Assembly (NCBI GenBank): GCA_048940925.1
Contig: JBHLOC010000044.1
Location: 1 to 38,138, forward strand
Origin: Promethearchaeota archaeon
GTDB lineage: Archaea > Asgardarchaeota > Lokiarchaeia > Sigyniarchaeales > SOKP01
Reading direction: 5' to 3'
Length of the DNA stretch: 38,138 nucleotides
Positions within the stretch are counted from its first letter, which is position 1. The number at the start of each line of letters is the position of its first letter. This document shows positions 31,955-38,138 of the stretch, one piece after another. The translations under genes and the position numbers were made by a program. The notes under the pieces were generated by a model. The model searched no databases, was not told the DNA's origin, and worked only from the letters and a program-made list of their open reading frames with translations.

Positions 31955-32171
31955 AATCTTCTGATTTTGCGTAGGATTCTATAATTACAAAAAACAATTT
32001 TAAAATTTATTCTTTTTCTTAATTCTTTATAACTCCTTAAGAGGATTTAGATAATTTATAATAGAAAAGCTAAAAAAAAAATAAGAATAATAAATATATA
32101 TTGCAAGTGAATTTTAATAATAAGACCTATTGTATGCCAGTGTTGCCGAGTCGTAAGGCGATGGCCTGCAG

Positions 32172-32193
32172 AGACTCAGGATAGTGCGTAGTT
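32172..32193 (+). other. tRNA intron 1 (22 nt, canonical 37/38 position)
   Basis: Central helix CUGC/GUAG with bulges AG|A and UU|A. The anticodon stem serves as the outer helix. Confidence 0.85.
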
Positions 32194-32201
32194 AGCCATT
32201 T

Positions 32202-32231
32202 ATCATGGATATGCACTAGCCATGAGTGGAT
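32202..32231 (+). other. tRNA intron 2 (30 nt, non-canonical 45/46 position)
   Basis: Central helix CCAU/GUGG with bulges UU|A and AU|A, and inner helix UCAUGG/CCAUGA. Removal leaves a 5-nt variable loop. Confidence 0.8.
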
Positions 32232-32415
32232 ATCATGGGTTCAAATCCCATCACTGGCTCCACTTTTTATACTTTCTTAATGATAATAAACAACTAAATT
32301 GTGATGAATTGAACCTAATTTTTTTGGATAAATTAGTAATTACCAAGATAATCAATAATAATTTTACAAAAATATAGAAAATCGAAACACATACTATTAT
32401 TCTGAAATATTTGAG

Positions 32416-35736: not shown

Positions 35737-35999
35737 TTATGTTGCATTCATAATTTTCATTTTTGGCGCATAAGCTTCTTGAACCGCGTAATTATTGAAA
35801 TTTATACTGTAATGATTGCGCCAGTGTGTCTTTACATCCTCGAGCATCGCGTCCATCACAATCTGCTTCACTTTGGCCTTCGCGCAGAGGGTTGTGCCCA
35901 TTGGAACAGCTGTAATTTCGCCATCTTTTACTACGATTTGCCCGTCCTTAATAGTATATGCCGCCAGGGTAAATGCCTTTTCGATGTCTATGCCGGTGT
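35737..35999 (-). pseudogene. Start-less duplicate of the 3' end of fwdA (about 87 codons)
   Basis: Colinear without indels to 37134-37396. Translates TGIDIEKAFTLAAYTIKDGQIVVKDGEITAVPMG...APKMKIMNAT-stop. 35741-35832 is identical to 37138-37229, and the rest differs mostly at third codon positions. Confidence 0.9.
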
Positions 36000-36003
36000 G
36001 CTT

Positions 36004-36831
36004 TTAAAAATCATATCTGAGCAGACGAATCATATTCTTAAACTTTGAATTAACCGACATTCCCCGATAAACTAAGCGATACTTGAAAGGAAGTTTATTT
36101 ATATATTTTGATTGCCAAATTGTCATGTTTGATATTCTTTTCAATTTGGGATTAAGGGTATCAACCTCGTGGAGGTCTTCGACAGCCCATTTATGTTCAG
36201 CACTCATCTTTTTTTTGAGGTCAGATTTGGCCGATTCAATGGCAAATGAATTTATTGCATCAAACATTATTTGACCATGAGAAAAATGATTAGTGATTTG
36301 ATTAAGGAGGATTTGAACATCCCCTTTAGTTAAATATTCAAAAACACCATCTGCAATAACTAGTACATCTCCTTCAGAGGGAAAGTTATTGATTAATTTA
36401 GAATCTATAATTGAAGCAGCTATCATATGATATCCCTCCTTGTCAGAAAAAAAGTGTTTCCGTAATTGGATAACCTCCGGATAATCAACATCGTACCAGT
36501 TAACATTTGGAGAGGGATTGATTCGCTCTATTCTTGTATCAAGCCCGCAACCTAAGTTAAGTACTATAACATTGGAGTGATTTTCAAGAAATTCCTTTAC
36601 CCAGTCATCAAATTGTTTTGCTCTAACAACAATAATATTACCATTTCCAAATTTACTCATGTCCGTGAAATCATAATCAATAGTCTCAATAATTTCATTT
36701 GCCTTGGTGTCCTTTAAAATAGAATTTTTAGATTGACTATCAAATGCTTTTGCATAAAGCGTGATGAGAAGAGTTAGTTTTTCTTCTGTTAAATGTACCT
36801 TTTGAATTTTATCAATGTTCATTTTTATCAA
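36004..36831 (-). CDS. Class I SAM-dependent methyltransferase (LCM/TcmP-like)
   Basis: TLLITLYAKA, RAKQFD, VLNLGCGLDTR, WYDVDYPEVI..RK and IADGVFEYL motifs. The start may be the ATG at 36822. Confidence 0.88.
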   Translation of the reverse strand: MIKMNIDKIQKVHLTEEKLTLLITLYAKAFDSQSKNSILKDTKANEIIETIDYDFTDMSKFGNGNIIVVRAKQFDDWVKEFLENHSNVIVLNLGCGLDTRIERINPSPNVNWYDVDYPEVIQLRKHFFSDKEGYHMIAASIIDSKLINNFPSEGDVLVIADGVFEYLTKGDVQILLNQITNHFSHGQIMFDAINSFAIESAKSDLKKKMSAEHKWAVEDLHEVDTLNPKLKRISNMTIWQSKYINKLPFKYRLVYRGMSVNSKFKNMIRLLRYDF

Positions 36832-37133: not shown

Positions 37134-38138
37134 TTAAGTTGCATTCATAATTTTCATTTTTGGCGCATAAGCTTCTTGAACCGCGTAATTATTGAAATTT
37201 ATACTGTAATGATTGCGCCAGTGTGTCTTCACGTCTTCGAGCATCGCGTCCATCACACTCTGCTTCACCTCACCCTTTGCACAGAGGGTTGTGCCCATTG
37301 GAGTTGCCACGATTTCACCATCTTTTACGACAATCTGTCCATCTTTTATTGTATAGGTTGCTAAGGTAAATGCTCTTTCGATTTCTGCACCCGTGTTATC
37401 TTCTGGTTTAAGTTTGTAGATTGCCACGTCTCCTATAGCGCCCACACCGAGGTGACCACGATCGGTCATTCCAAGACATTTTGCTGTGCCAGCTCTTGTC
37501 GCAATACAAATTTCATTTAGTGTCAGTTCACGAGAGATATCTTTCAATTGGGTTTTCTCAGGAGCCCTCTTAGAGCATTGATTTAATAGTACATCATCTC
37601 GCGATTTCTTGTCCATTAGCCATCTGACAATTTGCGGATATGATGTGAACGGTCCACCGTTAGGATGATCGGTTGTCATGAAAATCTGCCACGGATTTTT
37701 CGTTAACAACATAAGCTCTAAGCCGATGGCCCATTGGACTGCATTAACTGCGACTTTGGGTTTAAAGAAATAGGGCACGATCCCTGACCCAGACTCTCCT
37801 TCTACTTGCCCATTGATCCATTTCACACCTGGACGATTTCCCCATGCCGATGTTCCACCGATATGATGCAGAGCGAACTGTCTTGCTCATGCGAGATAAT
37901 CGCATTCGACCCAAGGTCCGTCCGCAGTCATAGTCGTAGTGGGTGCTTTACCAAAAATAACTTGTCCCGCATCAACGGTTATATGATCATTTGAATTTAA
38001 ATATTCTGCAACATCTGGTGCACCTGATTCAAAATCATTCCAGTTAGTACCTCCATATGCATTAAATTGACAATGAGTAAGGTGTATCGTAGATTTACGC
38101 CCTTCTTTTGGCTGGATTTTTTTTAATGCTTCAAATGT
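37134..38138 (-). CDS. fwdA: Formylmethanofuran dehydrogenase subunit A (5' part outside window), interrupted by a 30-nt intron-like insert; exons 38138-37910 and 37879-37134
   Basis: One frame from the window edge reads IHLTHCQFNAYGG..VDAGQVIFG..TTMTADGPW-[insert with TGA]-FALHH..KWINGQVEGESGSGIVPY..QWAIGLEL..TTDHPNGGPF..ATRAGTAKCLG..RGHLGVGAIGDVAIY..YTIKDGQIVVKDGE, all FwdA/FmdA signatures. Confidence 0.93.
37880..37909 (-). other. Putative BHB-type mRNA intron in fwdA (30 nt: UCGAAUGCGAUUAUCUCGCAUGAGCAAGAC)
   Basis: Outer helix CGGAC/GUUCG, central 4-bp helix CUUG/CAAG, 3-nt bulges GG|U and AC|A, and inner stem C-G + GA/GA + AUGCGA/UCGCAU. Contains an in-frame UGA (37889-37887). Splicing gives GGA CCU UGG G|AG UUC = GPWEF. 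Confidence 0.85.

What the first reader, a model, noticed from the sequence alone, without database searches (positions are those of the whole stretch)
37874..37920. Probable bulge-helix-bulge intron inside a protein-coding gene (fwdA)
Seen in sequence: the fwdA frame reads ...TTMTADGPW-VECDYLA*AR-QFALHH..., a 30-nt insert with an in-frame UGA in a conserved region. On the mRNA (minus) strand the junctions form a strict hBHBh' fold. The exon-exon helix is CGGAC(37920-37916)/GUUCG(37878-37874) and the central 4-bp helix is CUUG(37915-37912)/CAAG(37885-37882). The two 3-nt bulges are GG|U and AC|A, and an intron hairpin AUGCGA-UUAUC-UCGCAU closes the structure. Cutting after the second nucleotide of each bulge (the archaeal EndA rule) removes exactly 37909-37880, deletes the stop, keeps the frame and creates a GAG codon, giving ADGPWEFALH. 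That restores the Glu of the ADGPxE motif I recall from FwdA/FmdA proteins. Established: EndA and RtcB splice BHB introns in archaeal tRNA and rRNA, and the well-documented mRNA case is crenarchaeal cbf5. Inference: a central C1-metabolism gene of a probable Asgard archaeon depends on tRNA-type splicing for expression. That would imply an overlooked class of mRNA introns, likely mis-annotated as split genes, and a possible prokaryotic parallel of IRE1/RtcB-type non-spliceosomal splicing.
Basis: partly seen in the sequence, partly recalled or inferred. Interest (0 to 1): 0.95.

Follow-up and report, generated by a model that had tools for sequence, protein, structure and literature searches.

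The report
tRNA-type mini-intron splits Asgard fwdA
The only fwdA gene (a step of CO2/C1 metabolism) of this Asgard archaeon is interrupted by a 30-base insert shaped like an archaeal tRNA intron, so its messenger RNA very probably has to be cut and rejoined by the tRNA-splicing enzymes, which the papers I could search confirm experimentally inside the coding part of only one archaeal gene (cbf5).

Summary
fwdA (minus strand) carries an in-frame TGA (37889-37887) inside a 30-nt insert (37909-37880).

Comparison supports the interpretation strongly.
- About 40 intron-less orthologues read ADGPWEF, exactly the product of cutting after the second base of each bulge.
- Eleven other sequences (5 species genomes in two genera, 6 metagenome contigs) carry a 30-nt insert at the same site. 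Their stops are TAA or TGA and lie at different codons.
- Hairpin sequences differ, but pairing is kept: 91% of cells paired against 25-45% in slid controls, and 11 pairs have double changes.
- After excision the genes are open (576-595 aa) and under strong purifying selection (pN 0.05-0.13, pS 0.69-0.80). This excludes Sec, a pseudogene and an assembly error.

The genome encodes a catalytic and a non-catalytic EndA subunit, RtcB, and many intron-bearing tRNAs. My own scan found two more 30-nt introns of this kind in the genome.

No RNA evidence could be obtained, so splicing itself is inferred. This scan has already reported many such introns on other DNA, including other fwdA genes. I found no paper describing them in Asgard archaea.

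The parts
37910..38138 (-). fwdA exon 1, the part lying in the window (76 codons plus the first base of the Glu codon). The first 274 codons are on contig C48 of the same assembly, with a 77-nt overlap.
   Evidence: The HxH, Lys and His metal-ligand motifs are seen in the C48 part. Assigning them as ligands rests on knowledge of the FwdA amidohydrolase fold.
37880..37909 (-). 30-nt BHB intron. It contains the in-frame TGA (37889-37887) and the inner hairpin h' (37908-37886; loop 37899-37895).
   Evidence: Same-site 30-nt inserts occur in 11 other distinct sequences. All 9 h' pairs show compensatory changes.
37134..37879 (-). fwdA exon 2 (AG of the Glu codon through the stop codon at 37136-37134). 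It includes the TTDHPNG segment with the metal-site Asp.
37912..37926 (-). 5' strand of the exon part of the BHB: helix extension 37926-37921, outer helix h 37920-37916, central helix H 37915-37912. The first 3-nt bulge follows at 37911-37909, with the cut after 37910.
   Evidence: Synonymous sites here are fixed to pairing-competent codons in intron-bearing genes and vary freely in intron-less ones.
37867..37885 (-). 3' strand of the BHB: central helix H 37885-37882 (intron), second bulge 37881-37879 (cut after 37880), outer helix h 37878-37874, bulged C 37873, helix extension 37872-37867.
   Evidence: Pair 18:49 covaries U:A / A:U, and the exon-exon pair 8:63 covaries C:G / G:C.

Best explanation
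The 30 nt at 37909-37880 are an archaeal bulge-helix-bulge (BHB) intron inside the coding sequence of fwdA.

Proposed mechanism:
1. In the pre-mRNA the two exon flanks pair with each other (5 + 6 bp). The last four exon-1 bases before the first bulge pair with the 3' end of the intron, forming the 4-bp central helix. The rest of the intron forms a hairpin.
2. This presents two 3-nt bulges to the splicing endonuclease, here an (alpha-beta)2-type EndA.
3. EndA cuts after the second base of each bulge.
4. RtcB joins the exons, giving ...UGG G|AG UUC..., and probably circularises the intron.
5. Only the spliced mRNA encodes full-length FwdA (about 573 aa). The unspliced mRNA stops 8 codons into the intron and lacks the Asp-bearing C-terminal part of the metal site.

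Shown here: the structure, its conservation by covariation, exact colinearity of the predicted product with intron-less orthologues, purifying selection on intron-bearing genes, and the presence of the enzyme genes.

Inferred: cleavage and ligation in vivo.
For: - Structure as described, and it is the minimum-free-energy fold.
- PDB FwdA aligns with a gap of exactly the insert.
- 38 distinct intron-less orthologous sites read GPWE(F/Y), the predicted junction.
- The same site and the same 30-nt length occur in G016, G101 (same genus), in G133, G134, G109 (another genus) and in 6 metagenome contigs. The stops are TAA or TGA.
- On 12 distinct sequences, 91.3% of cells are paired against 25-45% with slid partners. 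11 of 24 pairs have double changes, and 0 of 500 shuffles reach the covariation score. All 9 inner-helix pairs covary. One central-helix pair covaries between an exon Pro third position and the intron.
- After excision the frames are open for 576-595 aa. pN is 0.05-0.13 against pS 0.69-0.80, and dN/dS is 0.03-0.05 where dS could be estimated.
- Nucleotide identity is raised only from -20 to +48 around the intron, which is the BHB itself.
- Exon synonymous sites are restricted to pairing-competent codons only in intron-bearing genes: Glu GAG 11/11 against GAG 16 / GAA 22, and Gly GGA/GGG only against four codons.
- There is no second fwdA in the genome; the only other hit is a 25%-identity paralogue.
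- fwdB and fwdC are present.
- The EndA alpha subunit keeps Tyr/His/Lys and best matches the Aeropyrum pernix subunit 3p1z_B. The second EndA has lost Tyr and His. RtcB scores 556 bits.
- PMC5829648 reports (alpha-beta)2 EndA with the broad-specificity L1 loop in Asgard archaea.
- The rule of cutting between the second and third bulge residues is stated in PMC2738675.
- ARAGORN with intron search predicts introns in 22 of 34 tRNAs, one of them in this window.
Against:
- The fold z-score on its own is modest (-2.46).
- In this window's copy the inner helix next to the bulge is one C:G pair followed by a tandem G.A mismatch, not continuous Watson-Crick pairs.
- One metagenome variant has a U.U mismatch in the central helix.
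- The 12 sequences are related, so shuffle statistics overstate significance. The slid-partner control and the double changes are the sounder measures.
- The gene is split over two contigs, so the full-length frame in this genome is a join of C48 and C35.
Confidence: 0.86

Rival explanations
1. Translational recoding. The insert stays in the mRNA and the ribosome either reads the UGA as selenocysteine (or reads through it), giving a 10-residue insertion, or hops over the 30 nt as in T4 gene 60.
For: The insert is a multiple of three and keeps the frame. UGA is a Sec codon in some archaea. The stop lies in a hairpin.
Against: - 8 of 12 distinct inserts carry TAA instead of TGA, and the stop lies at different codons.
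- The insert peptides are unrelated between hairpin types, while base pairs are kept by double changes.
- There is no Rfam match (SECIS or other) at E<=1 in 37600-38138.
- There are no matched take-off and landing codons. The codon before the gap is UGG, but the bases before the resumption point are AAGAC. The stop is 8 codons into the gap, not directly after a take-off codon.
- No FwdA in the PDB or among about 100 family genomes has extra residues here without a stop.
Confidence: 0.03
2. Dead or dying gene. A small hairpin insertion has inactivated fwdA, and its BHB-like shape is coincidence.
For: There is an in-frame stop in a conserved region. The locus shows rearrangement, with an orphan copy of the fwdA 3' end and an inserted methyltransferase. 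Partial fwdA copies exist in relatives.
Against: - Intron-bearing genes in six species have no other lesion and are open for 576-595 aa once the 30 nt are removed. Synonymous sites are saturated while pN is only 0.05-0.13.
- The insert has persisted at one site across two genera with compensatory evolution.
- It is the only fwdA in the genome, although fwdB and fwdC are kept.
Confidence: 0.03
3. Split gene. Translation ends at the stop in the insert and restarts downstream (for example at GTG 37826), giving two polypeptides that assemble.
For: the ORF listing shows a 230-aa ORF from GTG 37826. Split enzymes are common in archaea.
Against: - The 18 codons between the insert and that GTG (FALHHIGGTSAWGNRPG...) are conserved in frame with intron-less orthologues, so they are translated.
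- No start codon follows the stop in any variant.
- This reading does not explain the BHB geometry, the constraint on exon synonymous sites, or why the junction codon is exactly restored.
Confidence: 0.03
4. Assembly or sequencing artefact, for example a chimeric join near a contig end.
For: The site is 229 nt from the contig end, and the bin has 8.4% estimated contamination.
Against: Eleven independent assemblies (5 species genomes and 6 metagenome contigs from other projects) hold a 30-nt insert at the same position. No intron-less junction sequence exists anywhere in this assembly.
Confidence: 0.01

Closest known systems
BHB intron in the cbf5 (pseudouridine synthase) pre-mRNA of Crenarchaeota (Desulfurococcales, Sulfolobales; Watanabe 2002, Yoshinari 2006, Yokobori 2009 = PMC2738675)
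   Same: - The intron lies inside a protein-coding sequence.
- It is recognised through a BHB formed by exon and intron.
- It is cut between the second and third bulge residues by a hetero-oligomeric (alpha-beta)2 EndA.
- Its distribution among relatives is patchy, with inferred gain and loss.
   Different: - A different gene (fwdA) and a different phylum (Asgard / Promethearchaeota).
- Here the motif is nearly canonical hBHBh', whereas most cbf5 introns are reported to have unconventional (relaxed) BHBs.
- The length is a uniform 30 nt in all 12 variants.
- cbf5 splicing was shown experimentally; here it is inferred.
Archaeal tRNA and rRNA BHB introns (EndA / RtcB pathway)
   Same: The same motif geometry (3-nt bulges, 4-bp helix), the same predicted cut rule and the same enzymes. 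The genome is rich in predicted tRNA introns, and one intron-bearing tRNA-Cys lies in this window.
   Different: The host is an mRNA. The central helix and outer helix are built from codons, so protein coding and RNA pairing constrain the same bases.
BHB intron in the 5' UTR of Haloferax volcanii HVO_1309 (PMC7714728)
   Same: An mRNA substrate of the archaeal splicing endonuclease, confirmed there by circRNA-seq and in vitro cleavage.
   Different: It lies in the untranslated leader (46 nt) and does not interrupt a reading frame.
IRE1/RtcB cytoplasmic splicing of HAC1 / XBP1 mRNA in eukaryotes
   Same: Works alike in outline: a small intron (26 nt in XBP1, from general knowledge) is removed from an mRNA by a protein endonuclease that reads RNA shape, and the exons are joined by an RtcB-type ligase in animals. 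Translation of the active protein depends on splicing.
   Different: The IRE1 nuclease is unrelated to EndA and recognises paired stem-loops, not a BHB. The eukaryotic case is a stress-regulated frame switch. No regulation is shown here. This is an analogy, not family membership.

Membership tests
Archaeal BHB (EndA-type) intron | Two 3-nt bulges on opposite strands, separated by a 4-bp helix | tested here: met
   Window: bulges 37911-37909 and 37881-37879, helix 37915-37912 with 37885-37882. All 12 variants have 3-nt bulges. 11 of 12 have all 4 central pairs and one has a U.U mismatch.
Archaeal BHB (EndA-type) intron | Flanking helices h (exon-exon) and h' (within the intron) | tested here: met
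   h is 5 bp plus a 6-bp extension, 93.9% of cells paired. h' is 9 positions, 85.2% paired, and all 9 pairs have double changes. In the window's copy, h' has a tandem G.A mismatch after its first pair.
Archaeal BHB (EndA-type) intron | Excision at the canonical sites (after the second bulge base) restores a functional product | tested here: met
   The canonical register gives GPW-E-F, as in 38 distinct intron-less sites. Neighbouring registers give Q, V or a stop. The cut rule is taken from PMC2738675.
Archaeal BHB (EndA-type) intron | The host encodes the splicing endonuclease and an RtcB ligase | tested here: met
   EndA alpha is on C58 (102 bits to PF01974; Tyr/His/Lys kept; best PDB match 3p1z_B). 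EndA beta is on C18 (70 bits; Tyr changed to Phe, His changed to Thr). RtcB is on C40 (556 bits).
Archaeal BHB (EndA-type) intron | Spliced RNA and excised (circular) intron observed, or cleavage by EndA in vitro | not testable with these tools
Selenocysteine recoding site | UGA conserved at the site, with a SECIS element | tested here: not met
   TAA in 8 of 12 variants. No Rfam hit at E<=1.
Programmed translational bypass (T4 gene 60 type) | Matched take-off and landing codons flanking the gap, with a stop directly after the take-off codon | tested here: not met
   There is no matching codon pair at the borders, and the stop is 8-10 codons into the gap.
FwdA / FmdA (formylmethanofuran dehydrogenase subunit A, TIGR03121) | Full-length match to the family model and to solved FwdA, with the metal-ligand motifs | tested here: inconclusive
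   The C-terminal 334 residues score 364.9 bits against a whole-protein cut-off of 392.75, because only part of the protein was scanned. PDB 5t5i gives E 6.6e-84. HxH, Lys, His and TTDHPNG motifs are visible. The joined full-length protein was not scored.

The most novel reading that the evidence does not exclude
This fwdA intron is one instance of a genome-wide set of about 30-nt BHB mini-introns in Asgard protein-coding genes. Routine pre-mRNA splicing by the tRNA-splicing machinery would then be a normal part of gene expression in the closest archaeal relatives of eukaryotes. The introns would also be mobile.

Observations that bear on mobility:
- On the FwdA tree the intron needs at least 5 gains or losses.
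- One metagenome gene of the second clade carries the hairpin type of the first genus.
- In 3 of 6 intron-bearing genomes a large ORF with two LAGLIDADG-like motifs ends 15-20 nt from the fwdA stop. It was seen in none of about 45 intron-less loci.

This hints at spread with the help of a free-standing homing endonuclease.
Probability: 0.4. Interest if true: 0.9.

Novelty: new member of a known kind. Interest (0 to 1): 0.8.

Why it matters
Endonuclease-mediated (BHB) splicing of a coding sequence is confirmed in the papers I could search for a single archaeal gene, cbf5; PMC2738675 adds that introns in other protein genes had only been predicted. The other confirmed mRNA case is one 5' UTR. 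A 2026 review of non-canonical splicing does not mention archaeal mRNAs.

A conserved, selected BHB intron in a core C1-metabolism gene of an Asgard archaeon extends this mechanism to the lineage closest to eukaryotes. At least two further cases in the same genome suggest it is not a one-off.

Practical consequences:
- Such genes are mis-called as split genes or pseudogenes, which distorts metabolic reconstructions from Asgard MAGs. Here fwdA, and so the Wood-Ljungdahl methyl branch, would be scored as broken.
- It gives a testable archaeal counterpart of RtcB-dependent mRNA splicing.
- It offers a system in which coding and RNA-structure constraints act on the same bases.

Tried and rejected

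2. Genome-wide BHB scan with an ORF-restoration filter and shifted-cut-site controls.
- With loose pairing rules there was no excess over controls: 15 against 10-13 for L 29-34, and 125 against 118-147 overall. The genome is AT-rich, and junctions between adjacent genes mimic the signal.
- With a stricter hairpin (at least 7 of 8 inner pairs) there were 12 hits against 4-6 in controls.
- The filter is weak. Its strictest form even misses the window's own intron, because of the G.A mismatches.
- It yielded only two further convincing cases, so it gives no estimate of the total number.

3. LAGLIDADG lead taken from earlier notes.
- The downstream ORF is homologous between G101 and G134 and shows two LAGLIDADG-like motifs.
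- Pfam support is weak (E 2.7e-4, below the cut-off), and a profile search of the PDB found nothing.
- It is absent next to fwdA in this window, G016, G109 and contig L085.
- Its four homologues elsewhere in G000 showed no clear neighbouring intron in a relaxed scan.

4. Gain versus loss. Even the closest relative (G099, 94% aa identity) has only 58% third-position identity, so the direction cannot be inferred.

5. Repeat-element check. No other copy of the intron core exists in the genome at up to 5 mismatches, so it is not a repeated element.

6. Sec, bypass, split-gene, pseudogene and artefact readings were rejected, as set out under the rival explanations.

Full report
**1. What is in the sequence**

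The window is a whole contig (C35) of a 4.8-Mb, 90-contig assembly. On the minus strand, from 38138 to 37134, lies the C-terminal 334 codons of a formylmethanofuran dehydrogenase subunit A gene. It matches TIGR03121 at E 5.4e-109 and PDB 5t5i FwdA at E 6.6e-84. The first 274 codons are at the end of contig C48, which overlaps C35 by 77 nt.

The frame is open except for one TGA at 37889-37887. RNAfold gives the proposed bulge-helix-bulge as the minimum-free-energy structure and adds a 6-bp extension of the exon-exon helix. The energy is -23.6 kcal/mol, z = -2.46.

**2. The insert is absent from solved and related FwdA, and the predicted junction is exact**

HMMER aligns Methanothermobacter FwdA (5t5i) with a gap of exactly the ten inserted codons: ADGPM-EYDLH against ADGPW[10]-FALHH.

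Among 135 genomes of the same family, 108 have fwdA. In the loci fetched, 38 distinct intron-less sites read ADGPWE(F/Y).

Cutting after the second base of each bulge is the rule stated for cbf5 in PMC2738675. It joins UGG G to AG UUC, which gives W-E-F. Shifting a 30-nt deletion by one or two bases would give Q, V or a stop (read). The structure therefore predicts the protein junction independently.

**3. The same intron elsewhere, with covariation**

Five other species genomes have a 30-nt insert with an in-frame stop at the same site. They are G016 and G101 (same genus) and G133, G134 and G109 (a second genus). A pattern scan of metagenome contigs added six more.

The 12 distinct sequences fall into three or four hairpin types with unrelated inner-helix sequences. 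The stop is TAA in 8 and TGA in 4, at codon 8 or 10 of the insert.

On the 70-column, gap-free alignment A1:
- The BHB structure is paired in 91.3% of cells, against 25-45% when partners are slid by 1-3 columns.
- 11 of 24 pairs have changes on both sides.
- All 9 inner-helix pairs covary.
- One central-helix pair switches U:A to A:U between the third position of the Pro codon and the intron.
- An exon-exon pair switches C:G to G:C between an Ala/Gly codon and a Leu third position.

Between the window and G016, the 7 differences within the intron are two compensatory pairs plus one loop, one internal-loop and one bulge position. None breaks a pair.

**4. The genes are alive**

With the 30 nt removed, the complete loci have open frames of 576-595 aa. 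Pairwise pN is 0.05-0.13 while pS is 0.69-0.80, which is saturated. Where dS could be estimated, dN/dS is 0.03-0.05.

Nucleotide identity between intron-bearing species is raised only from about -20 to +48 around the intron, which is the BHB itself. It falls to background outside.

In the exon flanks, intron-bearing genes use only codons that allow pairing: Glu GAG 11/11, Gly GGA or GGG, Leu CUN. Intron-less genes use GAA 22 / GAG 16, four Gly codons and six Leu codons.

The genome has no second fwdA. The only other hit is a 25%-identity paralogue on C41. It keeps fwdB and fwdC on C70.

**5. The machinery**

The genome has two EndA-family genes.
- The C58 protein best matches the catalytic subunit of the Aeropyrum pernix heterotetramer (3p1z_B, E 4e-33) and keeps the Tyr, His and Lys positions.
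- The C18 protein aligns to M. jannaschii EndA with the Tyr replaced by Phe and the His replaced by Thr, so it is a structural subunit.

This matches the (alpha-beta)2 type with the L1 loop reported for Asgard archaea in PMC5829648.

RtcB is present at 556 bits. ARAGORN with intron search finds 34 tRNAs, 22 of them with predicted introns. Rfam finds a 124-nt tRNA in this very window, 32136-32259, an intron-bearing tRNA-Cys.

**6. Rivals**

- Selenocysteine or read-through is excluded by the TAA variants, the shifting stop position and the unconserved insert peptides. Rfam finds nothing at the site.
- A gene 60-type bypass lacks matched take-off and landing codons.
- A pseudogene is excluded by the selection analysis.
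- A split gene with re-initiation does not fit, because the codons between the insert and the next start are conserved in frame.
- An assembly artefact is excluded by eleven independent assemblies with the same insert. There is also no intron-less junction in this assembly.

**7. Distribution**

On a maximum-likelihood tree of 53 FwdA C-terminal regions, intron presence needs 7 changes, of which at least 5 are forced by well-supported branches. The window's gene is sister to an intron-less one (SH-aLRT 97).

Metagenome contig L085 groups with the second-genus clade but carries the hairpin core of the first genus. This argues for repeated loss, lateral spread, or both. Synonymous saturation prevents deciding between them.

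In G101 and G134, a homologous large ORF with two LAGLIDADG-like motifs converges on fwdA and ends 15-20 nt from its stop. G133 has a remnant. None of about 45 intron-less loci, nor this window, has it. Its family assignment is weak (Pfam E 2.7e-4; no PDB hit). I treat it as a lead only.

**8. Is it a class?**

My BHB-plus-ORF-restoration scan has low power in this AT-rich genome. It did recover the fwdA intron and two further 30-nt inserts:
- C32:27895-27924 (minus strand), in an EF-2 family gene.
- C30:66095-66124 (plus strand), in an AIR-synthase-like gene.

In both, relatives lacking the insert are about 30 nt shorter and read exactly the predicted junctions, MTDSD|DEEQERGITIF and CGFHV|TRAALRDLY. 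The EF-2 insert recurs in three relatives, and the two whose sequences I read show compensatory changes.

Earlier notes of this scan list many more such introns in this and other Asgard genomes, including other fwdA genes. One case on other DNA is reported with environmental RNA support. Those are unchecked AI notes, apart from the items I re-derived here.

**9. Literature**

Full-text searches found cbf5 of Crenarchaeota as the only confirmed coding-sequence case, and a Haloferax 5' UTR intron as the only other mRNA case. I found no paper on BHB introns in Asgard mRNAs. PMC2738675 notes that introns in other protein genes had been predicted but not confirmed.

**10. Verdict**

The feature is a new member (new gene, new phylum) of the known kind 'BHB intron in an archaeal pre-mRNA'. 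Splicing itself remains inferred.

Noticed in passing
window 35737-36831 (minus strand): There is an orphan copy of the last 88 codons of fwdA at 35737-36003. It is 85% nt-identical to 37134-37396, and 27 of the 39 differences are at third codon positions. It lies directly downstream of an LCM-type methyltransferase ORF at 36004-36831 (PF04072, E 6e-14). The methyltransferase is therefore bracketed by two diverged fwdA 3' ends. No such methyltransferase is present in about 60 fetched fwdA loci of relatives. This looks like a cassette that recombined into the fwdA 3' end.
   Followed up: partly
window 32136-32259 (+): An intron-bearing tRNA-Cys: the Rfam tRNA match (45.7 bits) spans 124 nt for a 71-position model, and ARAGORN -i predicts a 46-nt intron. 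The default tRNA tool reports no tRNA in the window.
   Followed up: partly
L080:3-3380 (G101), L054:2518-3993 (G134), remnant in L055 (G133): Homologous large ORFs (33% identity over 450 aa) with two LAGLIDADG-like motifs (LGFLMADGS, GYYDGDG) converge on intron-bearing fwdA genes and end 15-20 nt from the fwdA stop. They are not seen next to intron-less fwdA loci. Four homologues exist elsewhere in G000 (C26, C57, C70, C17).
   Followed up: partly
G000 C32:27895-27924 (-) = L096; G000 C30:66095-66124 (+) = L097: Two further 30-nt BHB inserts with in-frame stops, one in an EF-2 family gene and one in an AIR-synthase-like gene. Intron-less relatives read the exact predicted junctions. The EF-2 insert is shared with G001, G013 and G007.
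   Followed up: yes
window 38062-38138 and G000 C48:108617-108693: fwdA is cut by a contig break 229 nt upstream of the intron. The two contig ends overlap by 77 nt (probably the assembler's k-mer). The cause of the break is unknown.
   Followed up: no
G006 C1:1491207-1491437 and 322052-322234; G101 C2:12681-13358; G083 C15:3817-4461; G135, G041: Partial copies of the fwdA 3' half are scattered in several relatives. The fwdA 3' region seems to be a recurrent site of duplication or recombination in this family.
   Followed up: no
G000 C41:214705-218033: A 25%-identity FwdA-like amidohydrolase paralogue lies next to a second FwdB-like gene (361 bits to TIGR03129). It may be a second Fwd/Fmd-like module.
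   Followed up: no
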